The notes: a model not told the origin generated them from the sequence alone. Counted from the stretch's first letter, positions 7,869 through 54,748 are shown. The stretch: 64,000 nucleotides of DNA from Gemmatimonadales bacterium (GCA_037045245.1 JBAOHR010000010.1:9569-73568), one strand, 5' to 3'. Numbers and translations: made by a program.

Positions 7869-7903
7869 ATCGATCATCGATGATCGATCATCGATCATCG
7901 ACA
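7869..7903. repeat. five tandem heptamers (ATCGATC/ATCGATG/.../ATCGACA) containing a perfect 20-nt palindrome
   Basis: ATCGATCATCGATGATCGAT (7869-7888) is self-complementary. The tract begins 6 nt after the nusG stop. Confidence 0.85.
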
Positions 7904-8035
7904 GTTGGTGCAGGACCGGGAGAGCTCGCTCTCCCCCGGCGACCGCCCCGGGTCAAACGGCGGCAGGTCCAGCGATGACCGCTGGTCCGTCATTCGGTGT
8001 CCCGCGCAGCCAGCGGGCACCGTTACAGGAGCGAC

Positions 8036-8461
8036 ATGGCCAAGAAGATCGTAGCCATGGTGAAGCTGCAGTGTCCGGCTGGCGCGGCGAATCCCGCGCC
8101 CCCGGTCGGCACCGCGCTGGGCCCGCACGGGGTCAACATCATGGAATTCTGCAAGCAGTTCAACGCGCGCACCCAGGCGCAGTCGGGCATGGTGATTCCC
8201 GTGGTCGTGACGATCTTTGGTGATCGCACGTTCACGTTCATCACCAAGACCCCGCCTGCGCCGAACCTCCTGCTGAAGGAAGCGGGAGTGGAGAAGGGCA
8301 GCGCCGCGCCGAACCGCACCAAGATCGGGAAGGTGACCTCCGCGCAGGTGCGGAAGATCGCCGAGATCAAGATGGTCGACCTCAACGCCTCCGACCTCGA
8401 TTCCGCGATGCGCATGATCGCCGGGACCGCGCGGTCGATGGGGCTGGAGGTCATCGACTGA
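8036..8461 (+). CDS. rplK: 50S ribosomal protein L11
   Basis: 141 aa from ATG 8036 ([29 protein letters not shown]), with AGGAG upstream. Confidence 0.95.
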
Positions 8462-9150
8462 TGGCGACCCAGGGCAAGAAGTATCGCGCCGCGGTCGCCA
8501 AGGTCGACGCCACCCGGATGCATTCGACGTCTGAGGCGGTGGACCTCGTCAAGCAGACCACGTACGCCAAGTTCGACGCGACGGTCGATGTCGCCGTCCG
8601 GCTCGGGGTGGATCCGCGTCACGCTGACCAGGTGGTTCGCGGCACGGTGATCCTCCCGCACGGCACCGGCAAGACGGTTCGCGTGCTCGTCGTCGCCCAG
8701 GGCGACCGGGCCAAGGACGCGGAGGCGGCGGGTGCCGACTTCGTCGGCCTCGAGTACCTGGCCAAGCTGAAGGAAGGCTGGCTGGAGTGCGACGTCATCG
8801 TCGCCACGCCGGACGTCATGGGGCAGCTGGGCGCGCTCGGCCGGATCCTCGGTCCGCGCGGCCTGATGCCGAATCCGAAGGCGGGCACCGTCACGATGGA
8901 CGTGGCGAAGGCCGTCAAGGAGATCAAGGCAGGCAAGATCGAGTTCCGCGTCGACAAGACGGGGAACGTCCATGCTCCGATCGGCAAGGTCTCGTTCTCC
9001 GGCGAGCAGCTGGCGGCGAACCTCGAAGCATTCATGGAGACCATCGTGAAGGCGAAGCCGTCGGCGGCCAAGGGGACCTACGTCCGCTCGGCGACCGTCA
9101 GCGCGACGATGGGCCCCGGCATCAAGCTCGACACGGCGGGGTACCGATGA
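8461..9150 (+). CDS. rplA: 50S ribosomal protein L1
   Basis: 229 aa with TGATG coupling to rplK and typical L1 sequence ([17 protein letters not shown]...). Confidence 0.95.
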
Positions 9151-9644
9151 GCAAGACTGAACGGCATGAGGAAGTCGCCATGCTGACCGAGGCCATCAAG
9201 GCCTCCCCGACGCTCTTCGTCACCGACTTCAGCGGCCTCAACGTGCTGAAGATGACGGAGTTCCGCCGGCGCCTCCGGGCGGCGGGCGGGCGCTACGTCG
9301 TGGTGAAGAACACCCTGGCCCAGCGGGCGCTGGCCGCGAACAGCATCGCGGATCTCGACAGCCACCTGACCGGCAACACCGGCCTCGTCTTCGCGGGCGG
9401 GGATCCGATGGCAGCCGCCAAGGTGATCGGCGAGTTCGCCAAGGAACACGAGAAGCCGACCGTGAAGGCCGGGTGGGTCGACGGGAAGGCCGTCGCCCCG
9501 GCGTACGTGAAGCGTCTCGGCGAGATCCCCCCGCGGGAGGTGCTGCTCGGCCAGTTTGCCGGCGCGCTCAACGGAGTCCTCTATCAGGTGGTCGGTGCGC
9601 TCGAGGCGCTCCGCGAACAGCGTTCGGCCGGCTCGGCCGCGTAA
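9147..9644 (+). CDS. rplJ: 50S ribosomal protein L10
   Basis: 165 aa from ATG 9147, overlapping the rplA stop (ATGA). Sequence begins [33 protein letters not shown]. Confidence 0.9.
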
Positions 9645-9662
9645 CATACGGGAGATACAACC

Positions 9663-10040
9663 ATGGCGACTATGCTCAGCAACGACGAAATCATCGACGC
9701 GATCGGCAACAAGACCGTGCTCGAACTGGCCGACTTGATCGAGGCCTTCACGACGAAGTTCAACGTCTCCATCGCGGCCGCTCCGGCGGCGGGCGGCGGC
9801 GGCGCGGCGGCGGCGGTGGTCGAGGAGCAGACGGAGTTCACCGTCATCCTCAAGGCCGGCGGCGAGAAGAAGATCAACGTCATCAAGGTCGTCCGCGAGA
9901 TCACCTCGCTCGGCCTGAAGGAAGCGAAGGACCTGGTCGATGGCGCGCCGAGCACCGTGAAGGACGGCGTCTCGAAGGCCGAGGCCGAGGAAATGAAGAA
10001 GCGGCTCGAGGAGCAGGGCGCGAGCGTCGAGCTGAAGTGA
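9663..10040 (+). CDS. rplL: 50S ribosomal protein L7/L12
   Basis: 125 aa with an Ala/Gly hinge and a conserved C-terminal domain ([27 protein letters not shown]). Confidence 0.97.
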
Positions 10041-10084
10041 CCCCCGAAGGGGGTCATCCCGAGCCGGCAGCGACTGCTGCCGGC
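10038..10084 (+). terminator. two GC hairpins between rplL and rpoB (attenuator-like, no U-tract)
   Basis: TGACCCCC-GAA-GGGGGTCA at 10038-10056 and GCCGGCAGC-GACT-GCTGCCGGC at 10063-10084. Confidence 0.4.
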
Positions 10085-10231
10085 GAGGGATCTCTCCCCT
10101 TTGTCACGGTCACTCTCAGTGAGACGCGATGCCGACTGAACGCGAACTCGAGTTCTGCATGACGACAGTGCCAGCCCCCGCCCAGCGCGGGGGCTTCGGC
10201 ACTGCCGTGGCCATTTGCACGGGATGGGGCG

Positions 10232-14704
<4,473 letters not shown>

Positions 14705-19271: not shown

Positions 19272-19393
19272 GAGTCGTGAGTCATGAGTCGTGAGACGGC
19301 GGCCGGGGAGACCTGGCCGCCGTTTCATTTCGTTTCACGGTCCCACGCCCCCCATTCTCAGGACTCAGGACTCACGTCTCACGCCTGCTCCGC
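19272..19393. repeat. heptamer-built inverted repeat after rpoC: (GAGTCRT)x3 ... (WCTCASG)x4 with an inner GC hairpin
   Basis: Left arm 19278-19297 matches the reverse complement of 19366-19385 at 18/20 positions. The inner hairpin is CGGCGGCC...GGCCGCCG. Confidence 0.75.
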
Positions 19394-19397
19394 TCCC

Positions 19398-19426
19398 TTG
19401 ACCGGGTTGCGGTTCCCCCGTATCTT
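19398..19426 (+). promoter_or_regulatory. candidate promoter of the str operon, TTGACC-17 nt-TATCTT
   Basis: TTGACC at 19398-19403 and TATCTT at 19421-19426, 70 nt upstream of the rpsL ATG. Confidence 0.45.
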
Positions 19427-19907: not shown

Positions 19908-20374
19908 GTCGTCGCACCAAGGCCGTGAAGCGCGTCGTTCCGCCGGATCCGCGGTACGATTCCCAGACGGTGTCGAAGTTCGTCAGCAACCTGATGTATG
20001 ACGGGAAGAAGTCGCTGGCCGAGAGCATCTTCTACGGCGCGATGGACATGATCGAGGAGCGCACCGGGCAGCCGGGCGTGGCCGTGTTCAAGCAGGCCGT
20101 GAACAACGCCAAGCCGGCCGTCGAAGTGAAGAGCCGCCGCGTCGGCGGTGCCTCGCTCCAGGTCCCCGTCGAGGTGCGTCCGGAGCGCCGGACCGCCCTG
20201 GCGATGCGCTGGCTGATCTCGTATGCCCGCGCCCGTGGCGAGAAGACGATGGCGGAGCGGCTTGCCGCCGAGCTGATCCTCGCCTCGAAGGGCGAGGGCA
20301 ACACGATCAAGAAGAAGGACGACACGCACCGCATGGCGGAAGCGAACCGGGCCTTCGCGCATTATCGCTGGTAG
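19904..20374 (+). CDS. rpsG: 30S ribosomal protein S7
   Basis: 156 aa with a GTG start overlapping the rpsL stop. It ends with the typical S7 C-terminus, ...[15 protein letters not shown]. Confidence 0.95.
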
Positions 20375-20401
20375 TAGGGGCGAGGCATGCCTCGCCCGTA
20401 C
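20374..20401. repeat. 28-nt REP-like palindrome, copy 3 (GTAGGGGCGAGGCATGCCTCGCCCGTAC)
   Basis: It overlaps the last base of the rpsG stop codon. The central pair of positions differs from the other copies but remains complementary. Confidence 0.85.
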
Positions 20402-22745: not shown

Positions 22746-22818
22746 GGTCATAGGTCGTAGGTCCCAGGTCGTAGGCTGACCTGATCCGACACGACCTACG
22801 ACTTACGACTTACGACCG
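22746..22818. repeat. heptamer-built imperfect inverted repeat after fusA: (GGTCRYA)x4 ... (ACGACYT)x4
   Basis: Left units are GGTCATA GGTCGTA GGTCCCA GGTCGTA; right units are ACGACCT ACGACTT ACGACTT ACGACCG. The innermost units are exact complements. Confidence 0.75.
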
Positions 22819-22851: not shown

Positions 22852-24054
<1,203 letters not shown>

Positions 24055-24057: not shown

Positions 24058-24085
24058 GTAGGGGCGACGCATGCGTCGCCCGTAC
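24058..24085. repeat. 28-nt REP-like palindrome, copy 4 (identical to copy 2)
   Basis: It sits at the same offset after the tuf stop as copy 2. Confidence 0.85.
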
Positions 24086-24237
24086 TCACCAGGCTTCGGC
24101 CTGGTGCGGTTTCCGGAAGTAAGGGCGCAGCCTGCTGCGCCCATGCAATGCAGGTGAACCGGGGTGGCTCGACCGCCCCACAGCGGCAGTGACGCGGGAC
24201 AATCCCGCGCCATGATGAGCATCAGAGAGGACTCACG

Positions 24238-34855: not shown

Positions 34856-34893
34856 GTCACGGGGGCGCCTGCGCCCCCGGCTGGACGGCAGAC

Positions 34894-34950
34894 GTCAAAC
34901 GTGAAACGGGAGCCCGAAGGTCGGCCTCCGTTTCACGTTTCACCTTTCAC
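34894..34950. repeat. heptamer-built hairpin after secY: (GTSAAAC)x2 ... (GTTTCAC)x3
   Basis: AAACGTGAAACGG(G)AG at 34897-34912 pairs with CTCCGTTTCACGTTT at 34926-34940 (15 bp, one bulge, 13-nt loop). A separate GC hairpin GGGGGCG-CCTG-CGCCCCC lies at 34861-34878. Confidence 0.8.
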
Positions 34951-35013
34951 GGTGGGCCGTTTACGTTCCCGGGATACCCTGAGTCGTCACCATTCACCGC
35001 ACGGAGTTCGCTC

Positions 35014-35580: not shown

Positions 35581-36332
35581 TCACGATCAAGTCGGCGCGG
35601 GAGCTCGACACGATGGCCCGCGCCGGGCGCATCCTGCACGCGACCCTGCAGCGGATGCAGGAGATCCTCCGGCCCGGCATGTCGACCGAGGACCTCGACG
35701 CCGAGGCCGAGCGGTTCATCCGCTCGCACCCCGGCGCATTGCCGTCGTTCAAGGGCTTGTACGGCTTCCCGAAGACGCTCTGCATCTCGATCGACGAGGA
35801 GATCGTCCACAGCATCCCGTCGCCGCGGCGGATCCTCGCCGAGGGATCGATCGTCTCCATCGATTGCGGCGTCTGCATCGAGGGGCTGCACGCCGACTCC
35901 GCCACGACCCTCCCCGTCGGCGCGATCTCGGCGGAGGCGCAGCGGCTCCTCGACGTGACGCAGCAGTCGCTCGTCGCCGGGATCGCCGCGGCGACGGTGG
36001 GACACCAGGTGGGCGACATCGGCCACGCGGTGCAGACGGTCGCCGAGGCGGCGGGCTATGGCGTGGTGCGCGAACTCGTGGGCCACGGCATCGGCACCCG
36101 CTTCCACGAGGAGCCGCAGGTCCCGAACTTCGGCAAGCCGGGCCGCGGCGCGGCCCTCCGGGCCGGAATGACCCTCGCGATCGAGCCGATGATCACGATG
36201 GGGAAGCCGGCCACCAAGACGCTCAAGGACAAGTGGACCGTGGTGACCGCGGATGGGTCACTGGCGGCGCATTTTGAGCATACGGTGGCGGTGCTGGAGG
36301 GTGGGCCGAGAATCTTGACCGATGGGTCGTGA
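35577..36332 (+). CDS. map: type I methionine aminopeptidase
   Basis: 251 aa with a GTGA overlap with adk. Metal-ligand context is typical of MetAP (IVSIDCG, GHGIG, MTLAIEPM, FEHTV). Confidence 0.95.
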   Translation: MITIKSARELDTMARAGRILHATLQRMQEILRPGMSTEDLDAEAERFIRSHPGALPSFKGLYGFPKTLCISIDEEIVHSIPSPRRILAEGSIVSIDCGVCIEGLHADSATTLPVGAISAEAQRLLDVTQQSLVAGIAAATVGHQVGDIGHAVQTVAEAAGYGVVRELVGHGIGTRFHEEPQVPNFGKPGRGAALRAGMTLAIEPMITMGKPATKTLKDKWTVVTADGSLAAHFEHTVAVLEGGPRILTDGS

Positions 36333-36419
36333 GTCCTGAGTCCTGAGAGTTGTGAGGCCGGCATCCCCGCGGATCGTCGGCCTCTCCGCCCTCAGGACTC
36401 AGGACTCAGGACTCACGAC
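36324..36419. repeat. 22-bp perfect inverted repeat made of GAGTCCT/CTCAGGA heptamers, with an inner GC hairpin
   Basis: GTCGTGAGTCCTGAGTCCTGAG at 36326-36347 is the exact reverse complement of 36398-36419. The 50-nt loop contains GAGGCCG...CGGCCTC. The arms include the stop codons of map (36330-36332) and suhB (36399-36401). Confidence 0.9.
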
Positions 36420-37193
36420 TCCCCGCAACCACCCCGCCATCTCCCCACTCCCCGCCACCACCCCGCTGTGCTCCACGCCGAGCGCGCTGCCGTCCAGCTT
36501 CGTCACCACCCCTCCCGCTTCCCGCACCAGCACGATCCCGGCAGCCATGTCCCACGGGGCCAGCATCAGTTCCCAGAAGGCCTCGAAGCGCCCCAGCGCG
36601 ACGTCGACCAGGTCGAGGGCGGCCGACCCGCCGCGGCGAACCCCGGCCGTGGCGCCAAGGACCGCGGCCATCTGCGGCAGGTAGGTCGGGATCAGGTCGG
36701 GATGCTTGAAGGGGAAGCCGGTGCCGATGAGCGCCTGGCCCGGGTCGTGGATCGTGGAGACCCGCATTCGATCACCGTTGGCCCACGCCCCGCCGCCCTG
36801 CCAGGCGGTGTAGCGGCGGTGCGCCGTGGCGTGGAAGACCGTCCCCGCGACCAGCTCGCCGTCGAGGGCCGCGCCGATGGAGACGCACCACATCGGATGG
36901 CCGTGGAGGAAATTGGTGGTGCCGTCGAGCGGATCGACCACCCAGACCAGGCCGTCCATTGCCTCGGCGTCGGGGGAGATCTCCTCGCCCATGACCCGGC
37001 TCGAGGGCTCGGCGCGGAGCAGCGTCTCGCGGATGCGTTCCTCCGCCCCCTGGTCGATCGCCGTCACGTAGTCGTGGTGGCCCTTGGCGGTCCAGGTGGC
37101 CGGGTCCGGACGCGCGGCACCCAGGAGGAACGAGGCGGCTCGGGCAGCGGCCCGTTCCGCCAGGCGGGCCAGGGCGGCGGCCTCGCGGCTCAT
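36399..37193 (-). CDS. suhB: inositol monophosphatase family protein (SuhB-like)
   Basis: 264 aa from ATG 37193 with the motifs WVVDPLDGTTNFLHG and WDMAAG. The ORF-track start at 37358 is antisense to trpS and was rejected. Confidence 0.88.
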   Translation of the reverse strand: MSREAAALARLAERAAARAASFLLGAARPDPATWTAKGHHDYVTAIDQGAEERIRETLLRAEPSSRVMGEEISPDAEAMDGLVWVVDPLDGTTNFLHGHPMWCVSIGAALDGELVAGTVFHATAHRRYTAWQGGGAWANGDRMRVSTIHDPGQALIGTGFPFKHPDLIPTYLPQMAAVLGATAGVRRGGSAALDLVDVALGRFEAFWELMLAPWDMAAGIVLVREAGGVVTKLDGSALGVEHSGVVAGSGEMAGWLRGVVSPES

Positions 37194-39319: not shown

Positions 39320-40600
39320 ATGTTCGACCGGAAGCACAGCTGCATCGTGGTGGTCGGCGCCCAGTGGGGCGACGAAGGGAAGGGGAAGCTGGTCGACGTG
39401 CTGGCCGAGCAGGCGAACGTCGTCGTGCGCTACCAGGGCGGCGCCAATGCGGGCCACACAGTCGTGGTCGGCGATCGCCAGTTCGTCCTGCACCAGATCC
39501 CGTCCGGGATCCTCCATGCCGGCGCCAAGTGCGTCGTCGGCAACGGCGTGGTGCTCGACCCCGAGACCTTCTTCGCCGAACTCGACGAACTCGCGACCCA
39601 GGGGATCGACGTCTCCGGCCGCCTCTTCATCTCGGACCGGGCGCACGTCGTGCTGCCGTACCACAAGCTGCTGGATGCCGCGAGCGAGAAGCAGCAGCAG
39701 ATCGGCACCACGGGGCGGGGCATCGGGCCGACCTACGAGGACAAGATCGGTCGGCGCGGCGTGCGCGTCGCCGACCTGATCCGCGCCAACGTCTCGCGGG
39801 AGTTCGTGGCCGACCGGATCGAGCGGGCGAACGCCCTCCTCGCGATGATGGGGTCGACGGTGCGCGCCGACCTTGAGGAGCACCTCGCCCTCATGGAGCG
39901 CCTGGGCGCCCGTCTGCGGCCACTGGCGACCGACACGGGGTTGCTGGTCCACCAGGCCCTCCGCAGCGGTCAGCGGGTCCTCCTCGAGGGCGCGCAGGGC
40001 GCCCTCCTCGACGTGGACCACGGGACCTATCCGTTCGTCACGTCGTCGAACACGACGGCGGGCGGCGCGGCGATCGGCGCCGGGATCGGTCCGACCGAGA
40101 TCGACGGCGTCCTGGGGGTGGTGAAGGCCTACACGACCCGCGTCGGCAACGGCCCGCTGCCGACCGAGGCCGGGGGCGACCTCGAGGAGCGGCTGCGCAC
40201 CCTCGGCGGCGAGTTCGGTGCGACCACCGGCCGCCCGCGCCGCTGCGGCTGGTTCGACGCCACCGTGGTCCGCTACTCGGTCCGTGTCAACGGCCTCACC
40301 GGCCTCGCGGTCACCAAGCTCGATGTCCTCGACTCGTTCGCCGAGATTCCGGTCTGCACCGCGTATCGCCTCGATGGCGAGGTCTGCAGCGAAGTGCCGA
40401 GCGACGTCGAGCGGCTGGGTCGGGTGGAGCCGGTCTACGAGTCGCTGCCGGGGTGGCAGCGGCCGACCGACGGCGCGCGCAAGCTCGCCGACCTGCCGCC
40501 CGCGGCGCGTGCCTATCTCGACCGGTTGCAGGATCTCTCCGGGGCACCGATTCGGTATGTGAGCGTGGGGACGCGGCGGGATCAGATCATCGAGTGCTGA
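39320..40600 (+). CDS. purA: adenylosuccinate synthase
   Basis: 426 aa (GAQWGDEGKGKLVD, GTTGRGIGPTYEDK, TTGRPRRCGW). Confidence 0.97.
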   Translation: MFDRKHSCIVVVGAQWGDEGKGKLVDVLAEQANVVVRYQGGANAGHTVVVGDRQFVLHQIPSGILHAGAKCVVGNGVVLDPETFFAELDELATQGIDVSGRLFISDRAHVVLPYHKLLDAASEKQQQIGTTGRGIGPTYEDKIGRRGVRVADLIRANVSREFVADRIERANALLAMMGSTVRADLEEHLALMERLGARLRPLATDTGLLVHQALRSGQRVLLEGAQGALLDVDHGTYPFVTSSNTTAGGAAIGAGIGPTEIDGVLGVVKAYTTRVGNGPLPTEAGGDLEERLRTLGGEFGATTGRPRRCGWFDATVVRYSVRVNGLTGLAVTKLDVLDSFAEIPVCTAYRLDGEVCSEVPSDVERLGRVEPVYESLPGWQRPTDGARKLADLPPAARAYLDRLQDLSGAPIRYVSVGTRRDQIIEC

Positions 40601-40602
40601 AG

Positions 40603-40703
40603 GCGAGAAGCGAGAAGCGAGAAGCGTGAAGCGTGAAGCGTGGCCCAGCGGTGAGATCCTCCCGCCGAGCCACGCTTCTCGCTTCTCGCTTCTCGCTTCT
40701 CGA
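40603..40703. repeat. ~35-bp imperfect inverted repeat made of heptamers: (GCGAGAA)x3(GCGTGAA)x2 GCGTGGC ... GCCACGC (TTCTCGC)x3 TTCTCGA
   Basis: Read directly from the sequence. The loop is 24 nt (40645-40668). The element fills the whole gap between convergent purA and the PilX-like gene. Confidence 0.9.
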
Positions 40704-42754: not shown

Positions 42755-43947
42755 GGCGCGGCGCTCGTCGTGATGGCGGTGGTTCGGATCGTCGACTGCG
42801 ATGGCGTGCAGTCCTGCGCAGCGATGCCGAAGGTGTAGCCCGTGGAGAAGGAGTGGCCCGTGATGTCCGTGGAGTAACTTGTCTGGCCCGCCTCGGCGCG
42901 GACCACCAGGAGCGGTTCGGCCCAGGTGGTGGCCGAGCTGAGACGACGCCAGATGATGTATTGCGTGACGTCCTGCTCGCCGGCTTCCTGGTCGGGCGAG
43001 GCCGTCCACGAAATGCGGATCACGCCATCGCCCGGGTTCGGCTCGGCCGCCGAGAGCGAACCCGGCTCGAGCGGGACACGACCGCAGACCGTCGGGAGCG
43101 GGATGCCGTTGTTCGGCACCTCGATCGTCGTCGACATGTCGCGGAAGCGCTCGGCGGCGCCGGGGGCACCGTTCGTCAACCGGAAATTCATCCGGACCGC
43201 GCGGATGGAATCGGGCCGGACGTAGTTCGCCGAGTCCGCGGCCGTGATCCCCGCGACGAGCGGCCGGCGAATCAGCGGCAGCACGCCGGCGGGCGCGATC
43301 TGGAGCGTGTCCCCCGTCGAGAGTTGCCGCTGCATCAGGTACTCGAAGAACGGCCGCCCATTGGGGTGCGCCAGGATGTTCCGGGTCACCATCTCTGGGG
43401 TTCCGGCGTTCACCCGCTGCCACATCACGTAGTCGTCGCTCCGGGTGGTGTTGGCGTCGAGCTCGAAATAGAGCATGTACGTCTCGGCGGCCGACGGCGA
43501 GCCGTTCCCGAGCTGGTACGTCACCGGCGGGTAGGTGTAACTGGGCGACGAATTCGGGATGGCCGCCTGGGCTGCCTGCGTCCACGCCGTGGTCTCTTCG
43601 ACCGGGGTGTCGACGTTGAAGTACGTCGCCCACCGCATGTCGACCGTGTCCTGCTCGACGTAGTCCGTGTTGAACGCGAGGATGGTGTTCGCGCCGTAGA
43701 CCAGGACCGGCTGGTTGTTCGGGGTCCCGGCGCCCATCGTCCGGATGATCCGTTCCGAGGCTTCAATGGCGCCGCGGGCGCTCTCGATCAGGTCGTAGCG
43801 CGCGGTGTTGCTCTTGAAGTTCTGGCTCTGCGACCGGAAGAGCGCGTAGGTCGCGCCCGTGACGAACGTGAGCACCGTGACGGCGAGCAGCAGCTCCATC
43901 AGGGTGAAACCGGCTCGGCGGCGGGCGGCAGGCAGGTGGTTGGTCAT
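42751..43947 (-). CDS. PilW-like type IV minor pilin with a C-terminal fibronectin-III-like domain
   Basis: 398 aa with a prepilin-type N-terminus RAG/FTLMELLLAV (Glu at +5). The C-terminal segment IRISWTASPDQEAGEQDVTQYIIWRR...GQTSYSTD...YTFGIAAQD looks FN3-like. Confidence 0.75.
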   Translation of the reverse strand: MTNHLPAARRRAGFTLMELLLAVTVLTFVTGATYALFRSQSQNFKSNTARYDLIESARGAIEASERIIRTMGAGTPNNQPVLVYGANTILAFNTDYVEQDTVDMRWATYFNVDTPVEETTAWTQAAQAAIPNSSPSYTYPPVTYQLGNGSPSAAETYMLYFELDANTTRSDDYVMWQRVNAGTPEMVTRNILAHPNGRPFFEYLMQRQLSTGDTLQIAPAGVLPLIRRPLVAGITAADSANYVRPDSIRAVRMNFRLTNGAPGAAERFRDMSTTIEVPNNGIPLPTVCGRVPLEPGSLSAAEPNPGDGVIRISWTASPDQEAGEQDVTQYIIWRRLSSATTWAEPLLVVRAEAGQTSYSTDITGHSFSTGYTFGIAAQDCTPSQSTIRTTAITTSAAP

Positions 43948-43948
43948 G

Positions 43949-44344
43949 TCAGGGGCTCGCGATGACGGCGGTGACGGCGACGGTGTCCTTGAGGCCTGGG
44001 TCGATGACCCGGACGGTCACCACGGTCCGGTCCCGCGCCGGGGAGCCGGACTGGTCGCGCACGATGGTGGTGATCCGTCGCATCCGGGGGAAGCCGGAGA
44101 ACCCGGTGGTATCGGCACCGGCCCCGCTGCCGTAGAGGGTGGCCAGCCGGGTGTACCGGGGGTCGGCCCGGACCAGTTCCATCCGGTCCTGGGCGACGCC
44201 AGCCGAGATGACCCGGATCGAGGAACCGGTCATTCCCCGGGAGAATGCGGTCGAGAACTTGGCGAAGGTGGTGGTGATCAGGACCAGAATCACGACCGCC
44301 AGCAGGACCTCGACCAAGGTGAAACCGCGTCGGTCGTGGTTCAA
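43949..44344 (-). CDS. PilV-like type IV minor pilin
   Basis: 131 aa from TTG 44344, with GGAGGG 4 nt upstream. The prepilin N-terminus is RRG/FTLVEVLLAVV. The ORF-track ATG at 44425 would add an unlikely leader. Confidence 0.7.
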   Translation of the reverse strand: MNHDRRGFTLVEVLLAVVILVLITTTFAKFSTAFSRGMTGSSIRVISAGVAQDRMELVRADPRYTRLATLYGSGAGADTTGFSGFPRMRRITTIVRDQSGSPARDRTVVTVRVIDPGLKDTVAVTAVIASP

Positions 44345-44893
44345 TTGGCCCTCCGCCAGGTGCCGGTGCTCAGTGAGTACAGGGTGGGCCGTCCGGTGGC
44401 CCGGACAACCGAGATCGCTCGGCAACGCTTGCAGGATGCGTCAGGCAGCGCCGAGGTGAGGTAGATCGTACCGCCCCGGGAAGCCGACCCGTCGCGCCGG
44501 AAAATGATGGTGGAAAGCTCGGTCGGGTCGGAGGGGCCGGGTACGTCGGCGGTCGACCCCTTGGCTGAGGCGTGCCGGCTCATCCAGGACCACCGTCCGG
44601 ACCCGCTCCCCGCTGCCGACGGCCCCGTTGTTGTCGACGTCCTCATGGATCTGGATCCGCTGGGGGTCGATCACCACGAAGCGCACGTTCGCCTGCAGGG
44701 TGACGGCAAGTCGCTGCGCCTTGCTCACTTCCGTGATCACCTCGCGGGCGATCGCGTCGGTCCGGTACCGCTGCCAGTCGAGACGCGAGGCGGCGATCCC
44801 TGAGAGGATGCCGATCATGACAATCACGATCAGCAGCTCGATCAGGGTGACGCCGTGGCGTCCCGACCGGCAAGGGGCGCCGGTCGAGATCAT
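44341..44893 (-). pseudogene. FimT/GspH-like minor pilin, reading frame broken near 44545-44560 as sequenced
   Basis: The N-terminal part from ATG 44893 (RHG/VTLIELLIVIVMIGILSGIAASRL...) is in one frame. The family-typical C-terminus (TIIFRRDGSASRGGTIYLTS...RAISVVRATGRPTLY) is in another frame that ends in a TTGA overlap with the PilV-like start. The original frame continues into Arg/Pro/His-rich text with lower GC3. Confidence 0.65.
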
Positions 44894-48350: not shown

Positions 48351-48619
48351 TGGTATTCAACGTGACGACCTCCCTCGACGCCGGCGACGTGATCAGCCGC
48401 GCCAAGCGCTTCTTCGCCGAGCGCATTCCGCATCACGCCGCCTTTCCGGAAAAGGAGGGCGACAGCTGGCTGGTCCTGCGCGGGCAGGGCGGGGAGGAGA
48501 TTGCGCTCGCCACCTCGACCGTCGACGGCGTGACGCGTGTGCGCGCCTCCACGCTGCTCTTCGATCATGCGGTCGACCGGTTTCTGAGCACGCTGCCGCC
48601 GGCGGAGGTGCCGGCATGA
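48350..48619 (+). CDS. hypothetical protein (89 aa)
   Basis: High GC3, with TGATG coupling upstream and ATGA coupling downstream. No recognisable motif. Confidence 0.6.
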   Translation: MVFNVTTSLDAGDVISRAKRFFAERIPHHAAFPEKEGDSWLVLRGQGGEEIALATSTVDGVTRVRASTLLFDHAVDRFLSTLPPAEVPA

Positions 48620-48876: not shown

Positions 48877-48890
48877 GCGGGACGACCCCG

Positions 48891-49778: not shown

Positions 49779-49787
49779 GCTTCCCCC

Positions 49788-50807: not shown

Positions 50808-53224
50808 CCGACCGGTACGCGCAGGTCGCCCTGCCGCTGCCACTCGCCGAGCCGTACCGCTACCGGATCCCGGCCACCCTCGCCGATCGCGCGCTCCCCG
50901 GGGCGCGCGTCGTCGTTCCGGTCCGGCGCGAGGAACTCATCGGCATCGTGACGGCGGTCGACGTGCCGCCGCCGCCCGCCGCGGCGCGCGACATCCTCGC
51001 CGCGCCCGAACGCCGAGGTGGCGCTGCCGCGCGCCGTTGCTGGCGCTGGCGGCACGGGCGGCGCGCTACTACGGCGCGCCGCCGGGGCTGATGCTGCGCG
51101 CGATGCTGCCGGCGGCGCTCTGGGGGCAGTCGACGGTGATGCTTCACCTGGAGAGCACCGCCCGCGCCGTGGGTGGCGGGACGGCGGGCGATCTCGTGGA
51201 GTGGCTTGATCGGCGCGGTGGCAGCGGCACCATCCAGGCGGCGAGTCGCGCCCTCAAGAAGCCGCTCTGGGAGGCCGCCGATCGGTTGCAGCGCGTCGGC
51301 GCGCTGTCGCTGGAGGTCGTGCCGCCGGACACCGACGGTGCGGCGGCCGACCACGCGCACGGCCGCAATCGTCGGCGAAGCGCTCCCGCTGCTGGCCCGC
51401 GACGCCCATTTCCTCCGGAAGCCGGCGCAGCGCAAGCTCTACGAACTGCTCGAGGGGCGCGGTGGCCGGATGGCGGTGCGCGGCCTGCTCGAGGCGAGCG
51501 GTGCCACCATCGGCCCGTTGCAGCGGCTCGCAGCGTCGGGGTTGATCGCGCTGCTCGACGACGAGACCTCGCGCGATCCCTTCGCCGATCTTCCCTCGAG
51601 TCCGCCACCGCCGCATCTCACCGCCGACCAGGTCAGCGCCCTCGCGATGCTGCGCACGATCGCTCCGGGCGAGACGTCCCTGCTCTTCGGTGTGACCGGC
51701 TCGGGGAAGACGCTGGTCTATCTCGAGCGGATCCGCGAACTCCTCGCCGAGGATCGCGGTGCGATCGTCCTCGTGCCCGAGATCGCGTTGACGCCGCAGA
51801 CGGTCGCGCGGCTGCGCGGTGCCTTCGGCGACGACGTCGCGGTCCTCCACAGCGGCCTCAGCGACGGCGAGCGCGCCGATGCCTGGCGATCGCTCCGCCG
51901 CGGTGAACGGCGGGTCGCCGTCGGCGCCCGCTCGGCGATCTTCGCGCCCGTGCGCAACCTCGGCCTGATCGTGATCGACGAGGAGCACGAGTCGAGCTAC
52001 AAGAACGGCGAGACGCCGCGCTACCACGCGCGCGAGATCGCCGCCTGGCGTGCGCGCCTCGAAGAGGCCGCGATCATCCTCGGATCGGCCACTCCCGCGC
52101 CCGAGAGCTGGGCCCGCCTCGCGCCCGCGCATGTCGTCCGACTTCCGGCGCGGATCGGGGAGCGACCGATGCCGCCAGTGGAGCTGGTGGACCTTCGCGC
52201 GACGCCGATCGTGGCCCACCCGACCGGCGTCCCGTGGAGCACCGTCCTCGACGACGCGGTGACGGCGGCGCTCGCCCGCCAGGAGCAGGTGTTGCTCCTC
52301 CTCAACCGGCGCGGCTGGGCGGCGTTCGTGCAGTGCACCGCCTGCGGCGAGGTGGTGCAGTGCCCCAACTGCAGCATCTCGCTCACGGTGCACCGGAACC
52401 CCGACGAACTCCGCTGCCACTACTGCGACCATCGCCGGGAAATCCCGACCGCCTGTCCGGCGTGCCAGGGCACCACCACGCGTCACCTGGGGGCCGGCAC
52501 GCAGCAGGTCGAACGCCTCGTCGCGGAGCGTTTTCCGGCGGCGCGCCTCGCCCGGATGGACCTCGACACGACGGCGAGCAAGTGGGGGCACCACCGCATC
52601 CTCGAACGCGTCGGCCAGGGCACGGTCGACGTGCTCATCGGGACCCAGATGATCGCGAAGGGGATCGACTTCCCCAACGTGACGCTGGTCGGCGTCGTCG
52701 ATGCGGACACGGCGCTCCACCTCCCCGACTTCCGCTCGGCCGAACGCACCTTCCAGCTCATCGCGCAGGTGGCCGGGCGCGCCGGGCGAGGGCCGAAGGG
52801 CGGCAAGGTCCTGGTGCAGACGCGGCAGCCCGACCATCCGGCGCTCGGGTTCGCGGCACGACACGACGCCGAGGGATTCCTCGTGGCCGAGCTCGAGGCC
52901 CGCCGCTCGCCGCCGTATCCGCCCACCACCTCGCTCGTCCGGATCGTGGCGAGCGGCGAGGATGGCGGCGCCGTGGCCGAGCGGATCACCGCGCTCGCGA
53001 CGTGGTGCGACGCGCTCATCACCCGTCTCGACCTCCCGCTGACCCTGCTCGGTCCGGCGCCGTGTCCGATCGAACGGATCACCAACCGGTGGCGCCATCA
53101 CCTGCTGCTCAAGGGCGAGGCGGCGGTGCTCGGCGGCGTGGTGCGGGCACTCGCCCCGAAGCTCGGCGCGATGCGGGGCGATGTGCGGTTGGCGTTGGAT
53201 CGGGATCCGGTGTCGTTGTTATGA
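50804..53224 (+). pseudogene. priA: primosomal protein N' (PriA); the N-terminal ~550 nt needs three +1 frame changes as sequenced
   Basis: The PriA-like text runs in the 50804 frame to about 51008 (MTDRYAQVALPLPLAEPYRYRIP...DILAAPE). It then shifts by +1 (AEVALPRA), by +1 again (LLALAARAARYYGAPPGLMLRAMLP...LEVVPPDTDGAAA), and returns to the original frame near 51340-51365. The remainder is intact (GVTGSGKT, DEEH, four CxxC zinc motifs). Confidence 0.7.
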
Positions 53225-53328
53225 GTCGTGAGTTGTGAGTCCTGAGTCGTGAGAGGTCGTTGGCCGTTAGTCGTTGGTCGTTAGCCGTTGGTCGTTAGAG
53301 GTCGTAGGTCGTAGGTCGTAGGTCGTAG
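53223..53328. repeat. 15 consecutive in-phase heptamers directly after the priA stop
   Basis: The units are GAGTCGT GAGTTGT GAGTCCT GAGTCGT GAGAGGT, then CGTTGGC CGTTAGT CGTTGGT CGTTAGC CGTTGGT CGTTAGA, then (GGTCGTA)x4. A single unbroken 7-nt register runs from 53223 to 53327. Confidence 0.9.
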
Positions 53329-54641
53329 GGGCGTGTCTGTTTGTCTGTGTATGAGCCGAGGTTATGCATCGGCGGGGACGCGATCCCCGAAGAGCAATCG
53401 AATGTGCCGCATCGCCTCGCGCCAGTGCTGGGGCGGCTGGAAGCGGACGGTTGCGTGGCGGAGCGCGAGGTACAGGAGCTTGGCCGCGGCGTCGGCGTTC
53501 GGAAAATGGCCGCGGACCTTGAGTGACTTCCGCAGCGTGGCGTGCAGGCTCTCGATCGCGTTGGTCGAGTAGAGCAGGCGGCGGACCGGCACGGGATAGA
53601 GGAGCGCGGGGCTGATGCGCGCCCAGTGTCGGTGCCACAGCGGCGCGATTTCGGGATACGCCGTCCCGACCGGGCTCGCCGCAAACGCCGCCAGGGCCTG
53701 CTGCGCGGCCGCGTCGCTCGGGGCCAGGTAGATCGCCCGCAGCGCGGACGCCACGGCCCGACGCTCGCGCCAATTGACGGTGCGTAGACTCTGCCGCACC
53801 AGATGCACGACGCACTGCTGCACGACCGTCTCCGGAAACACCGCCTCAATCGCCGCCGGAAAGCCCGCCAGGCCATCGATCAGGGTGATCAGGATATCCC
53901 GCACCCCCCGGCCCTGCAGCTCGGTCAGGACGCGCTGCCAAAACGCGGCGCTCTCCTCCGCCGCAATCCAGAAGCCGAGCACGTCCTTGGTGCCGTCGGG
54001 GAGGAAGCCCAGCGCGAAGTAGACCACCTGCTGCCGGACGATCCCCTCGGTGCGCATCTTGACCCGCAGGCCATCCAGCGCGACCGCGACATACACCGGC
54101 TCGAGCGGCCGCTGCTGCCACGCCTGCGCCTCGTCCCACACGGCGTCGGTCACGGCGGTGATGACATCGGCCGAGACGGGGACCTGGTAGCACTCCTCCA
54201 GGTGGGCCTGGAGCTCCCGCACGGTGAGGCCCCGGGCGTAGAGCGACAGCACCTTTTGGTCGAAGCCCGGCAGGCGGCGCACCCCTTTCGGCACGAACGC
54301 CGGCGTGAAGGTCCCGGCCCGATCGCGCGGGATCGCCAGCGGCAAGGCGCCCTCATCGGTCAGCACGGTCTTCGGCGTGGTGCCATTGCGCGCATTACCG
54401 TCCGCGCCGCGCCCCTCGCCGGGCGGATAGCCCAGATGCTCGGTCAGCTCGGCCTGCAGCACCTGCTCGACCATCCGCTGCTTCAGGGCCCGGAACACCG
54501 CCTCCAACTGCTCGGGCGTCCGGACATCCGCCACCAGCGCCTCGACCGCGGCCTGCTGCGGATCCTCCCCTTTCCTCTGTCGTGCCATGGCCTACCTCCC
54601 GCTGTAGGATATGGCTCATACACAAACTTTCCGACAGGCCC
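53329..54641 (-). mobile_element. IS256-family insertion sequence, 1313 bp, with 29-bp imperfect terminal inverted repeats and an 8-bp target-site duplication
   Basis: IRL is GGGCGTGTCTGTTTGTCTGTGTATGAGCC (53329-53357). The reverse complement of 54613-54641 is GGGCCTGTCGGAAAGTTTGTGTATGAGCC (23/29 identical). The direct repeat GGTCGTAG is present at 53321-53328 and 54642-54649. Confidence 0.9.
53362..54588 (-). CDS. IS256-family (mutator-type) transposase
   Basis: 408 aa with typical IS256 transposase sequence ([10 protein letters not shown]...[31 protein letters not shown]...). Confidence 0.95.
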
Positions 54642-54657
54642 GGTCGTAGATTTCTGG

Positions 54658-54748
54658 TCACCGTTCACCGTTCACCGTTCACCGTTCACCGTTCACCGTT
54701 CACCGTTCACTGGTCACTGGTCACCGCTCACCCCTCACCCCTCACCAC
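54658..54748. repeat. 13 tandem heptamers: (TCACCGT)x7 (TCACTGG)x2 TCACCGC (TCACCCC)x2 TCACCAC
   Basis: Read directly from the sequence. It is in register with the tract left of the IS once the IS and one TSD copy are removed. It ends 8 nt before the arsB ATG. Confidence 0.9.

What the first reader, a model, noticed from the sequence alone, without database searches (positions are those of the whole stretch)
7869..54748. A family of 7-nt-periodic tracts fills most gene-end gaps, with a different heptamer at each locus
Seven separate non-coding gaps are built largely from tandem heptamers, usually as two arrays in inverted orientation that can form 15-35-bp hairpins.
- The gaps are nusG|rplK, rpoC|rpsL, fusA|tuf, secY|adk, map><suhB, purA><pilX-like and priA|arsB.
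- The unit sequence differs between loci: ATCGATC, GAGTCRT, GGTCGTA, GTGAAAC, GAGTCCT, GCGAGAA/GCGTGAA, TCACCGT. What is conserved is the 7-nt period and the hairpin architecture, not a sequence.
- This is unlike classical REP/BIME or MITE families.
- Most units carry TGA or TAG on the strand of the incoming gene. Because 7 = 2x3+1, three units place a stop in every reading frame, and three real stop codons (map, suhB, priA) are supplied by the repeat itself.

My inference is that these act as combined all-frame translation stops and transcription terminators, or are products of a lineage-specific slippage or recombination process. I do not know of a described element class with these properties.
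Basis: partly seen in the sequence, partly recalled or inferred. Interest (0 to 1): 0.8.

Follow-up and report, generated by a model that had tools for sequence, protein, structure and literature searches.

The report
Seven-base repeat hairpins at gene ends
The gaps after many genes in this Gemmatimonadota genome hold tandem 7-base repeats, usually as two mirrored arrays that fold into long hairpins; the feature is real and fast-changing, but it belongs to a class of bacterial heptanucleotide repeats that has been described before and is still poorly understood.

Summary
Period-7 tandem tracts are the only short-period repeats in the window. There are 8 in 3.1 kb of non-coding DNA, against 0.01 in shuffles and 1 in 60.8 kb of coding DNA. 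Six of seven gaps hold two inverted arrays that fold into 11-45-bp stems (z -3.7 to -9.5).

- Slippage is supported. Genomes 99.6% identical differ by whole units (2 vs 5, 4 vs 5). Between close relatives the heptamer, or the whole cassette between the two stop codons, is replaced while the flanks stay 97-99% identical.
- Only one locus has a canonical terminator.
- Stops in units are not universal and are mostly expected from composition.
- One polarity rule is real. In 120 metagenome contigs with GAGTCNT arrays, the TGA-bearing arm comes first in 18 of 19 pairs.

The claim that no such class is described is wrong. Over-representation of heptanucleotide repeats (Mrazek 2007), cyanobacterial heptamer repeats, TAACTGA repeats and Xanthomonas GGGAATC inverted pairs are all known.

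Best reading: slippage-grown heptamer arrays extend gene-end hairpins. This is a new variant of a known kind, in a phylum where I found no earlier report.

Also seen: an IS256 element inserted into one array, and a GTAG-tagged REP-like family.

The parts
7869..7901 (.). ATCGATC array in the nusG|rplK gap, starting 5 nt after the nusG stop. It is self-complementary: (ATCGATC)(ATCGAT)|(GATCGAT)... gives a 20-nt perfect palindrome.
   Evidence: TRF. Sequence. Fold -21.4 kcal/mol, z -3.7. The same unit sits in the tuf|rpsJ gap of relatives L213 and L215.
19272..19295 (+). Left (5') arm of the rpoC|rpsL cassette: GAGTCGT GAGTCAT GAGTCGT GAG. TGA in every unit. Starts 8 nt after the rpoC stop.
19291..19338 (+). 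Inner GC-rich hairpin followed by TTTCATTTCGTTTCAC. This is the only canonical intrinsic-terminator-like core among the cassettes, and it is conserved in relatives.
   Evidence: Terminator scan. Conserved core in L001 and L211-L216.
19357..19384 (+). Right (3') arm of the rpoC|rpsL cassette: CTCAGGA CTCAGGA CTCACGT CTCACGC. It pairs with the left arm around the terminator core. A promoter-like site follows at 19398-19426.
   Evidence: (z -5.9).
22746..22818 (+). fusA|tuf cassette: (GGTCRTA)x4, an 18-nt loop region, then (ACGACYT)x4. It starts 3 nt after the fusA TAA.
   Evidence: z -5.6. The right arm has 4 units here and 5 in L005 and L001.
34894..34950 (+). secY|adk cassette: GTCAAAC GTGAAAC, a core, then GTTTCAC GTTTCAC CTTTCAC. 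A separate GC hairpin at 34860-34879 lies just after the secY stop.
   Evidence: z -4.2.
36326..36421 (.). map><suhB cassette: (TGAGTCC) arm, core GTGAGGCCGGCATCCC...CGGCCTC, then (GGACTCA) arm. It supplies the stop codons of both convergent genes.
   Evidence: z -9.3 on plus, -7.9 on minus. The left arm has 2 units here and in L221 and 5 in the 99.6%-identical L222.
40598..40702 (.). Cassette between purA and the convergent ORF: TGAAGGCG (AGAAGCG)x3 (TGAAGCG)x2, a core, then (CGCTTCT)x4. The purA TGA is the first unit.
   Evidence: z -9.5 and -9.2. The right arm has 4 units here and 5 in L222. The whole cassette is replaced in L223-L226.
53222..53328 (+). Direct arrays after priA: (TGAGTYG)x5, (TTGGYCG/TTAGYCG)x6, (TAGGTCG)x4. 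There is no inverted partner and no fold. The priA TGA is the first unit.
   Evidence: z -0.5.
53329..54641 (-). IS256-family insertion sequence inserted into the GGTCGTA array. Terminal inverted repeats at 53329-53357 and 54613-54641. 8-bp target duplication GGTCGTAG at 53321-53328 and 54642-54649.
   Evidence: Pfam Transposase_mut E=7e-105. Inverted repeats. blastn to annotated IS256 transposases. Target duplication read.
54658..54746 (+). Direct array (TCACCGT)x8 (TCACTGG)x2 TCACCGC (TCACCCC)x2, ending 9 nt before the arsB ATG (54756). It is unstructured. Before the IS insertion it was contiguous with the priA arrays.
   Evidence: z +2.2; reconstituted gap z +3.3.

Best explanation
**What it is.** These are heptanucleotide simple-sequence-repeat arrays. 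They belong to the same general class as the over-represented heptanucleotide repeats of Mrazek 2007, the cyanobacterial heptamer repeats and the Xanthomonas GGGAATC inverted pairs.

**How the arrays arise.**
- Shown: the arrays change by whole 7-nt units.
- Shown: they sit almost only in gene-end gaps, on the flanks of a pre-existing gene-end hairpin, often starting at the stop codon.
- Shown: neighbouring units are the most alike.
- Shown: the unit, or the whole cassette, turns over between close relatives while the hairpin position, and sometimes its core, stays.
- Inferred: they grow by slipped-strand mispairing in 7-nt steps. The unit is copied from local sequence at the base of the stem, which explains why it differs by locus.

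**How the two arms stay matched.**
- Shown: the stems are almost purely Watson-Crick, with few G.U pairs and equal stability on both strands.
- Inferred: the arms are kept complementary mainly at the DNA level, by intramolecular template switching at quasi-palindromes, with or without selection for the stem.

**What it does (inferred).** The result is a long stem-loop at the transcript 3' end or between cistrons. It extends a terminator or acts as an RNA-stabilising or processing hairpin, filling the niche that REP-like palindromes fill in the same gaps of relatives.

**The stop codons (inferred).** Stops in the 5' arm are most likely a by-product plus a tolerance filter:
- Stem bases here abut or include stop codons, so the seed sequence tends to carry one.
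- Only arrays with stops in all frames can overlap an ORF end and still tolerate +/-7-nt changes.

**Why 7.** The 7-nt step is a general bacterial property whose cause is unknown. The published idea is a polymerase-footprint slippage bias.
For: **Period 7 is specific and non-coding**
-.

**Whole-unit polymorphism**
- Between genomes 99.6% identical over 11.3 kb, the map><suhB left arm has 2 vs 5 units and the purA right arm 4 vs 5.
- The fusA|tuf right arm has 4 vs 5 units.
- L223 and L224 have 9 vs 11 TAAGTCG units.
- In rpoC|rpsL, left and right arms have 4-5 units and vary independently.

**Units match the adjacent stem base**
- Window: GTGAG|ACGGCGG. L001 type: CAGTGAG|CGGCG. L216: GAACGGC GAACGGC|GAC, the complement of the core's GTCGCCGTTTC.
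- The GTTTCAC arrays copy the terminator T-tail.

**Turnover at a fixed position**
- The rpoC|rpsL core is conserved, but it is flanked by GAGTCNT, CAGTGAC, GAACGGC or AGCTGGG arrays in different relatives.
- The purA cassette is replaced exactly between the two stop codons, with flanks 99.1% and 97.5% identical. A shared GCGAG sits at the same offset in both versions.

**Interchange with GTAG-tagged GC hairpins in the same gaps**
-.

**Stem properties**
- Stems are stable, almost all Watson-Crick, and equally stable on both strands.

**Same architecture in other phyla and in the literature**
-. PMC4692102 reports 70-75 inverted pairs among about 185 arrays in Xanthomonas, with copy number varying between species. 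PMC4679880 summarises Mrazek 2007.
Against: - **No transcript data.** Terminator, stabiliser or processing roles are inference. Only one cassette has a canonical T-tract terminator.
- **Polarity.** Pure slippage does not by itself predict the strong polarity: the stop-bearing arm comes first in 18 of 19 pairs. For GAGTCNT and GGTCGTA, the usual A-tract/T-tract polarity of terminators cannot explain it either.
- **Cassette replacement.** Replacement of a whole cassette, core included, between 99%-identical flanks may need recombination rather than in-situ slippage. The new core resembles the map><suhB core 4 kb away, which hints at ectopic copying.
- **Non-folding arrays.** The direct arrays (priA|arsB) have no hairpin to extend.
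- **The number 7.** Why the step is 7 and not 5 or 8 is not explained.
Confidence: 0.6

Rival explanations
1. A selected two-in-one module. The 5' array releases ribosomes in all three frames just before a hairpin, so the hairpin can fold and terminate or insulate transcription. The heptamer period is kept because 7 = 2x3+1.
For: - The stop-bearing arm is 5' in 5 of 5 informative pairs in the window.
- The same holds in the L001-type and L011 cassettes.
- It holds in 18 of 19 GAGTCNT pairs from unrelated metagenome contigs, p = 8e-5.
- T/A content cannot explain that polarity for GAGTCNT.
- Four real stops lie in arrays.
- Arrays begin 0-8 nt after the stop at most loci.
Against: - Periods 4, 5, 8 and 10 would also rotate frames, yet they are absent. 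So 7 is not explained by frame arithmetic.
- Many arrays carry no stop: ATCGATC, GCGAGAA, GAGCGCC, CCCGTCC, CGGGTGT, AGCTGGG and several in other phyla.
- Stop content is close to what unit composition predicts: 24 against 19.4 of 34.
- With a symmetric test, unpaired GAGTCNT arrays are not significantly sense-oriented: 26 against 18.
- Read-through and frameshift errors are rare, so selection would be weak.
- Copy number drifts freely between strains.
Confidence: 0.2
2. A family of mobile or recombining extragenic palindromes. These would be analogous to REP/BIME or REPIN elements moved by a RAYT-type transposase, or to MITEs, with the heptamer arrays as the recognised ends.
For: - The same unit turns up at different loci: GAGTCNT x3, GGTCGTA x2. 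ATCGATC is at nusG|rplK here and at tuf|rpsJ in L213 and L215.
- A 20-nt identical stretch, CTCAGGACTCAGGACTCACG, is shared by the right arms at 19357 and 36398.
- A whole cassette is replaced between 99%-identical flanks, and its core resembles another locus.
- GTAG-tagged REP-like palindromes co-occur and alternate with the arrays.
- Most units can be written GT[GA][AG]NNN, which recalls the GTAG tag.
- REPs are known to supply TAG stops (PMC3733652).
Against: - No consensus element exists. Units, cores and lengths differ between loci.
- No terminal inverted repeats with target duplications flank the cassettes.
- No empty-site versus filled-site polymorphism was seen; only replacement or unit-number change.
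- Units merge into the local stem base, and a residual GCGAG is shared by the two purA alleles. Both points argue for in-situ evolution.
- The downstream flank of the replaced allele is more diverged (97.5% and 95.6% against 99.1%). That fits ordinary allelic recombination from a diverged strain.
- No RAYT gene lies in the window (searches cover only part of it).
Confidence: 0.12
3. Arrays are binding sites, in a 7-nt register, for an oligomeric RNA- or DNA-binding protein. Candidates are Csp, S1 or CsrA-like proteins, as proposed for TAACTGA, or a HutP-like ring that reads NAG-N4 repeats. The binding would regulate translation or termination.
For: - Many units share a purine-rich trinucleotide (TGA, TAG or GAG) followed by four variable bases.
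- The TCACCGT array ends 9 nt before the arsB start and replaces any Shine-Dalgarno sequence. This resembles the position of TAACTGA repeats (PMC4679880).
- Direct arrays are unusually unstructured, z +2.2 and +3.3, as single-strand binding sites would be.
Against: - Units are too varied for one sequence-specific protein.
- Most arrays are locked in perfect duplex stems.
- Copy number and unit identity change between near-identical strains, with no sign of constraint.
- No candidate protein was identified.
Confidence: 0.05
4. Non-B DNA elements (G-quadruplex or i-motif), as proposed for the Xanthomonas and Nostoc heptamers; or an assembly or chance artefact.
For: Only the distal part of one array (TCACCCC x2, with GGGG on the minus strand) has G-runs.
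Against: - Units lack runs of three or more G.
- The arrays recur identically in independent assemblies from different samples.
- They are absent from shuffles.
Confidence: 0.02

Closest known systems
Over-represented heptanucleotide long simple sequence repeats (LSSRs) of prokaryotic genomes (Mrazek, Guo and Shah 2007, as summarised in PMC4679880 and PMC4692102)
   Same: - Tandem 7-nt units.
- Longer than chance.
- Period 7 dominates over other periods.
- Intergenic location.
- Scattered phylogenetic distribution.
- Slippage proposed as the origin.
   Different: - That work did not describe Gemmatimonadota.
- It did not describe the nested array-hairpin core-array anatomy.
- It did not describe unit turnover at a fixed hairpin.
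- It did not describe any polarity rule.
- I could not read the primary paper.
Xanthomonas GGGAATC heptamer arrays (Rehm et al. 2015, PMC4692102)
   Same: - High-GC genome.
- About 185 intergenic heptamer arrays, of which 70-75 are pairs on opposite strands close together and able to form stem-loops.
- Most lie between co-directional or convergent genes.
- Repeat length differs between related species, while the type (single or inverted pair) is preserved.
   Different: - There, one G-rich unit family was found and interpreted as G-quadruplex-forming.
- Here there are at least six unit families without G-runs, many with stop codons.
- Here the arrays enclose a separate hairpin core.
- Here the unit itself is replaced between relatives.
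Cyanobacterial tandem heptanucleotide repeats (three units reported in Calothrix PCC 7601, cited in PMC4692102; known to me as STRR, Mazel 1990) and GGGGAYT repeats of Nostoc
   Same: - Several different tandem heptamers in one genome.
- Intergenic.
- Variable in copy number.
- My own scan found such arrays in the Anabaena and Crinalium loci.
   Different: - Few inverted pairs in Nostoc (PMC4692102).
- AT-rich genomes.
- No reported link to stop codons or terminator cores.
TAACTGA direct repeats of Beggiatoaceae, cyanobacteria and Bacteroidetes (MacGregor 2015, PMC4679880)
   Same: - Heptamer with stops in all three frames when repeated.
- Can overlap ORF ends only slightly.
- Intergenic.
- Found even in ribosomal-protein operons.
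   Different: - Almost always direct (169 direct sets, 1 indirect).
- Placed just upstream of start codons.
- One unit only.
- No hairpins.
REP/BIME and GTAG-tagged palindromes (Di Nocera 2013, PMC3733652; Nunvar 2010, PMC2817692)
   Same: - Extragenic palindromes at gene 3' ends, often in inverted pairs.
- Transcribed-region stem-loops.
- Their ends often supply the TAG stop of the flanking ORF.
- IS elements insert into them.
- A true GTAG-tagged family is present in this window and swaps places with the heptamer cassettes in relatives.
   Different: - REPs are 20-40-nt units with a genome-wide consensus and a RAYT partner.
- The cassettes here have no consensus.
- They are built from tandem 7-mers.
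- They change by unit slippage.
Intrinsic (bidirectional) terminators
   Same: - GC-rich hairpin after the stop.
- At rpoC|rpsL a T-rich tail follows.
- GTGAAAC/GTTTCAC and GCGAGAA/CGCTTCT arms give an A-rich 5' side and a T-rich 3' side on both strands.
   Different: - Stems are up to 45 bp, far longer than terminators need.
- Most lack a T-tract by the scan's criterion.
- The GAGTCNT and GGTCGTA arms have no A/T polarity.

Membership tests
Heptanucleotide simple sequence repeats (LSSR / STRR-type) | Head-to-tail copies of a 7-nt unit, longer than expected by chance in that genome | tested here: met
   TRF gives 3-11 copies at 78-100% match. There are 8 tracts in non-coding DNA against 0.01 in shuffles. 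No other period is enriched.
Heptanucleotide simple sequence repeats (LSSR / STRR-type) | Predominantly intergenic location | tested here: met
   Density is 2.6 per kb non-coding against 0.016 per kb coding. All arrays lie in gaps or overlap only the last codons.
Heptanucleotide simple sequence repeats (LSSR / STRR-type) | Copy number varies by whole units between strains (slippage behaviour) | tested here: met
   2 vs 5 and 4 vs 5 units between genomes 99.6% identical. 4 vs 5. 9 vs 11. 4-5 units in both arms of rpoC|rpsL.
Xanthomonas-type inverted heptamer pairs (Rehm 2015) | Two arrays of the same unit on opposite strands, close together in one intergenic region, able to form a stem-loop | tested here: met
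   Six of seven gaps meet this.
Xanthomonas-type inverted heptamer pairs (Rehm 2015) | G-rich unit (GGGNATC) with G-quadruplex potential | tested here: not met
   Units are ATCGATC, GAGTCNT, GGTCGTA, GTGAAAC, GCGAGAA and TCACCGT. None has a GGG run.
REP / BIME / REPIN | A 20-40-nt imperfect palindrome with a consensus shared by many copies in the genome | tested here: not met
   Arms, cores and lengths differ between loci. The core motif GTGARGCCGGCATCCC occurs once in the window. The separate GTAGGGGCG...CGCCC family does meet this feature, with 6 copies.
REP / BIME / REPIN | Terminal GTAG (or CGTC) tag | tested here: inconclusive
   The GGTCGTA arrays read (GTAGGTC)n, and most other units read GTGANNN. 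That resembles the tag, but a tandem, base-paired tag is not the REP layout.
REP / BIME / REPIN | Associated RAYT (Y1 transposase) gene in the genome | not testable with these tools
   Only 64 kb of the genome is available, and I noticed no such gene in it.
MITE | Terminal inverted repeats, target-site duplication, near-identical dispersed copies, and empty-site polymorphism | tested here: not met
   No duplications flank the cassettes. Copies are not near-identical. Relatives show replacement or unit-number change, not presence versus absence. The one true mobile element is the IS256 copy.
Intrinsic terminator | GC-rich stem-loop followed directly by a T-rich tract | tested here: inconclusive
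   Met by the inner core of rpoC|rpsL. Not met by the scan's criterion at secY|adk, map><suhB or purA. The criterion was tuned on model organisms, and there are no 3'-end data.
Known structured RNA families (Rfam 15) | Match at or above the family gathering score | tested here: not met
   Only 4 tRNAs reach gathering score. In the gaps there are only sub-threshold generic hairpin (miRNA-precursor) matches.

The most novel reading that the evidence does not exclude
Heptamer-array hairpin cassettes are a cross-phylum, functionally constrained kind of gene-end element with a polarity rule: the stop-codon-bearing array is always the 5' arm. Either they are selected as ribosome-release-plus-hairpin modules, or they are produced by an unrecognised DNA-level process with an intrinsic 7-nt step that acts at stop-proximal hairpins, perhaps linked to the GTAG/GTGA-tag recognition used by REP-type systems. 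On this reading the long-known excess of heptanucleotide repeats in bacteria would have a specific mechanistic cause, not generic polymerase slippage.
Probability: 0.2. Interest if true: 0.75.

Novelty: new variant of a known kind. Interest (0 to 1): 0.5.

Why it matters
The excess of 7-nt tandem repeats in bacterial intergenic DNA has been on record since 2007 without a tested explanation. This lineage offers an unusually clean view of it.
- The arrays sit on conserved, essential operons.
- They flank a recognisable hairpin core.
- They differ by whole units between genomes that are 99.6% identical.
- The unit is swapped between close relatives.

That makes three things directly measurable: the rate of 7-nt slippage, the process that keeps the two arms complementary, and the 5'-arm polarity. 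Population metagenomes or a simple reporter would be enough.

There are practical consequences too.
- Such cassettes create hypervariable gene ends, because real stop codons and C-termini lie in them.
- They attract IS insertion.
- They mislead gene callers. A 64-aa ORF was called across the rpoC|rpsL cassette in several public contigs.

If the arrays are only neutral slippage products, the finding is a well-documented new example of a known curiosity.

Tried and rejected
- **Rfam.** Gathering and permissive scans gave no family, only generic hairpin noise.
- **Strand asymmetry of folding, to separate RNA-level from DNA-level constraint.** Plus and minus strands fold equally well, with 0-4 G.U pairs in 11-45 pairs. 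This was uninformative for direction and mildly favours a DNA-level origin.
- **Covariation within the CAGTGAC-type rpoC|rpsL cassettes.** The five sequences are too similar: 2 compensatory pairs of 49.
- **Sense orientation of GAGTCNT arrays relative to incoming ORFs.** A first count of 36 against 9 was inflated, because the array itself ends any sense ORF. A symmetric test gave 26 against 18, not significant, so I do not rely on it.
- **Stop enrichment in units.** 24 of 34 classes against 19.4 expected from permuted units. This is too weak to carry an argument.
- **Terminator polarity (A-rich 5' arm, T-rich 3' arm) as the cause of the arm order.** It fits GTGAAAC and GCGAGAA but fails for GAGTCNT and GGTCGTA.
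- **One mobile element.** Rejected for lack of a consensus, target duplications or empty sites.
- **G-quadruplex.** Rejected from the unit sequences.
- **Look-ups that returned little.** The exact-protein look-up for L11 found nothing, and Map gave only one short contig.
- **Primary source.** The Mrazek 2007 paper is not held, so it is cited only through two papers that summarise it.
- **Reconstituted priA|arsB gap.** Folding it without the IS gave less structure than shuffles. That gap was never a hairpin.

Full report
**1.

- 7869-7901
- 19272-19295 with 19357-19383
- 22746-22775 with 22791-22816
- 34929-34951
- 36326-36347 with 36391-36421
- 40598-40642 with 40673-40702
- 53222-53326
- 54658-54746

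A lag-p scan of my own finds seven strong tracts at period 7 and none at periods 2-13 other than 7.

With a GC3-based gene map, the 3.1 kb of non-coding DNA holds 8 period-7 tracts. Dinucleotide shuffles give 0.01. Periods 5, 6, 8 and 9 give 0. The 60.8 kb of coding DNA holds one.

**2. Source and flanking genes**

The window comes from a Gemmatimonadota genome. PurA is 77% identical to Gemmatimonadales MAGs.

Pfam confirms NusG, L11, SecY, Adk, Map, an inositol monophosphatase (SuhB-like), PriA and ArsB at the flanks. The ORF convergent with purA has no Pfam hit. In a near-identical contig it heads a cluster of proteins with N-terminal methylation (pilin-like) motifs, so 'pilX-like' is a fair guess.

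**3. Anatomy**

Six gaps share one plan: a 5' array, a short GC-rich hairpin core, and a 3' array that is the reverse complement of the first.

As RNA they fold into stems of 11-45 pairs. Energies run from -21 to -83 kcal/mol, with z-scores of -3.7 to -9.5 against shuffles. The ATCGATC array is itself two inverted half-arrays that form a 20-nt perfect palindrome.

At rpoC|rpsL the core is a canonical hairpin with a T-rich tail. The outer arms enclose it, and a promoter-like site follows. The other cassettes do not meet the simple T-tract criterion.

Arrays begin 0-8 nt after the stop at most loci. The stops of map, suhB, priA and purA are array units.

Four corrections to the finding:
- Units recur. 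GAGTCNT is at three loci, GGTCGTA at two and GTTTCAC at two.
- About 7 of 17 gene-end gaps of at least 25 nt carry arrays, including all three convergent gaps. That is not 'most'.
- The two arrays between priA and arsB are direct and unstructured, with z of -0.5 and +2.2.
- That gap is interrupted by an IS256-family element: Transposase_mut E=7e-105, inverted repeats at 53329-53357 and 54613-54641, and an 8-bp duplication GGTCGTAG. It inserted into the GGTCGTA array. Even without the IS, the gap folds worse than shuffles.

**4. The arrays change by whole units, and fast**

| Locus | Comparison | Units |
|---|---|---|
| map><suhB, left arm | window vs L222 (99.6% identical over 11.3 kb) | 2 vs 5 (TGAGTCC) |
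| purA gap, right arm | window vs L222 | 4 vs 5 (CGCTTCT) |
| fusA\|tuf, right arm | window vs L005 and L001 | 4 vs 5 |
| purA gap, left arm | L223 vs L224 | 9 vs 11 (TAAGTCG) |

In the rpoC|rpsL gap of five relatives, the left and right arms have 4 or 5 units independently of each other.

Within arrays, neighbouring units are the most alike. Examples are AGAAGCG x3 then TGAAGCG x2, and TGAGTCG, then TTAGTCG/TTGGTCG, then TAGGTCG x4. This is the signature of slipped-strand evolution.

**5. The unit turns over while the hairpin position stays**

In relatives that share an identical S12 or S10 protein, the rpoC|rpsL gap keeps a homologous terminator core and the downstream promoter and leader. 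The flanking arrays differ:
- GAGTCNT in the window
- CAGTGAC/CAGTAAC in L001, L211 and L213-L215
- GAACGGC in L216, which also retains one CCAGTGA unit
- AGCTGGG in L212

In each case the innermost unit runs into the stem base: GTGAG|ACGGCGG, CAGTGAG|CGGCG and GAACGGC|GAC. The GAACGGC and GTGAAAC units are complements of the core's 3' arm plus T-tail. This suggests that units are copied from local sequence.

In contigs L223-L226 the PurA protein is identical. The flanks are 99.1% identical upstream and 97.5% downstream. Everything between the two stop codons is replaced by (TAAGTCG)n-(TAGGTCG)-core-(CGACTTA)n, and both stop codons change. Three details bear on how this happened:
- The two alleles still share GCGAG at the same offset after the stop.
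- The new core resembles the map><suhB core 4 kb away.
- The more diverged downstream flank suggests that the allele arrived by ordinary recombination from a diverged strain.

In other relatives the fusA|tuf and tuf|rpsJ gaps carry GTAG-tagged GC hairpins where the window has heptamer cassettes, and the reverse also occurs. The two kinds of hairpin therefore occupy the same niche.

**6. The phenomenon is neither lineage-specific nor undescribed**

Among 80 purA loci from many phyla, period 7 is by far the commonest tract period. It appears, often as inverted pairs, in Gemmatimonadota, Acidobacteriota, Omnitrophota, Planctomycetia, cyanobacteria and others.

The literature has four relevant cases:
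- Mrazek et al. 2007 found heptanucleotide repeats to be the most abundant long simple repeats in most repeat-rich genomes. They proposed a polymerase-footprint slippage bias (as summarised in PMC4679880 and PMC4692102; I could not open the primary paper).
- Rehm et al. 2015 (PMC4692102) described about 185 GGGAATC arrays in Xanthomonas. Of these, 70-75 are inverted pairs in intergenic DNA, with lengths varying between species.
- MacGregor 2015 (PMC4679880) described TAACTGA repeats and noted that they stop all three frames.
- Di Nocera 2013 (PMC3733652) noted that GTAG-tagged REPs often supply the TAG stop of flanking ORFs.

I found no report for Gemmatimonadota.

**7. The stop-codon idea**

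The arithmetic is right, and four real stops lie in arrays. Several points weaken the idea:
- Several units have no stop.
- Across 34 unit classes from unbiased loci, 24 carry a stop on some strand. Permuting each unit's letters predicts 19.4.
- An apparent sense-orientation bias of GAGTCNT arrays (36 against 9) shrinks to 26 against 18 under a symmetric test.

One signal survives, and that is polarity. In inverted pairs the stop-bearing arm is the 5' arm in all five informative pairs of the window, and in 18 of 19 GAGTCNT pairs from unrelated contigs (p = 8e-5). For GAGTCNT and GGTCGTA this cannot be put down to the A-rich-then-T-rich layout of terminators.

I read it as seeding at stem bases that abut stop codons, combined with a tolerance filter. 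Only arrays with stops in every frame can overlap an ORF end and still absorb +/-7-nt changes. Selection for ribosome release before the hairpin is not excluded.

Frame arithmetic cannot explain the period itself. Periods 4, 5, 8 and 10 would also rotate frames, and they are absent.

**8. Mechanism**

*Shown*
- Arrays change in 7-nt unit steps.
- They are confined to gene ends.
- Units continue into the local stem base.
- Units and cassettes turn over.
- Stems are near-perfect Watson-Crick and equally stable on both strands.

*Inferred*
- Arrays grow by slippage with an intrinsic 7-nt bias on the flanks of gene-end hairpins.
- The arms are kept complementary mainly by DNA-level template switching at quasi-palindromes. 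This is established for other systems from my own knowledge and was not tested here.
- The long stems act as, or extend, transcript-end or intercistronic hairpins, as REPs do.

*Rivals*
- A selected stop-plus-terminator module.
- A REP/REPIN-like mobile or recombining family.
- Protein-binding arrays in a 7-nt register.
- Non-B DNA, or an artefact.

Their evidence is given in the rival entries. No known RNA family matches.

**9. Verdict**

The feature is real and striking. It belongs to a known but unexplained class, heptanucleotide simple repeats including inverted pairs.

As far as the searched literature shows, four things are new:
- the phylum
- the nested array-core-array anatomy on conserved operons
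- unit turnover at a fixed hairpin
- the arm-polarity rule

I rate it a new variant of a known kind, with interest 0.5.

Noticed in passing
window 53329-54641 (minus strand); duplication at 53321-53328 and 54642-54649: An IS256-family insertion sequence (Mutator-type transposase, 408 aa) with 29-nt terminal inverted repeats and an 8-bp target duplication GGTCGTAG. It inserted inside the GGTCGTA heptamer array and splits what was one priA|arsB gap.
   Followed up: yes
window 5653-5680, 6958-6985, 7021-7048, 20374-20401, 24058-24085, 24119-24146: A second repeat family: GTAG-tagged GC-rich palindromes, GTAGGGGCGnnGCnnGCnnCGCCCnTAC. There are 12 strand matches against 0.76 expected. They have the layout of GTAG-tagged REP elements and sit right after stop codons (rpsG, both tuf copies). 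In relatives they alternate with heptamer cassettes in the same gaps.
   Followed up: partly
window arrays, plus L001, L011, L211-L216 and L223: Most heptamer units of this lineage can be written GT[GA][AG]NNN: GTGAGTC, GTAGGTC, GTGAAAC, GTGAAGC, GTGAACG, GTGACCA, GTGAACA, GTAAGTC. A G precedes the stop triplet, which recalls the GTAG tag of REPs. This is unexplained.
   Followed up: no
window 36352-36385, and L223 4360-4400 / L224 2446-2490: The hairpin core of the map><suhB cassette (GTGAGGCCGGCATCCC...CGGCCTC) reappears, 17 of 18 nt identical at its 5' side, as the core of the alternative purA-gap cassette in strains L223 and L224. This hints at copying between cassettes about 4 kb apart.
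   Followed up: partly
window 5752-6954 and 22852-24054: There are two tuf copies. Contig L002 joins fusA to a tuf whose upstream region matches the tuf1 upstream region (5650-5751) instead of the fusA|tuf cassette. This is either gene conversion between the copies or a chimeric assembly.
   Followed up: no
L002-L004, L007, L008 (about 200 nt upstream of rpsL): Public gene calls place a 64-aa ORF with no Pfam hit across the rpoC|rpsL heptamer cassette. It is probably a spurious call caused by the repeat.
   Followed up: no
window 54747-54758: The TCACCGT/TCACCCC array runs to 9 nt before the arsB ATG. No Shine-Dalgarno-like sequence lies in between (TCACCACCCCCAACATG).
   Followed up: no
L031 8141-8186; L025 802-883 and 7274-7295; L094: Some heptamer arrays in other contigs equal or resemble telomere-type repeats: CCCTAAA in an Omnitrophota MAG and TTAGGGA in a Gemmatimonadaceae MAG. 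L094, which carries TTTAGGG runs, is probably eukaryotic, so the GAGTCNT metagenome sample is not purely bacterial.
   Followed up: no
window 40706-44425 (minus strand), L222 6394-10580: Downstream of purA, on the opposite strand, lies a cluster of a 682-aa protein without Pfam hits followed by three proteins with weak or faint N-terminal methylation (pilin-like) motifs.
   Followed up: no
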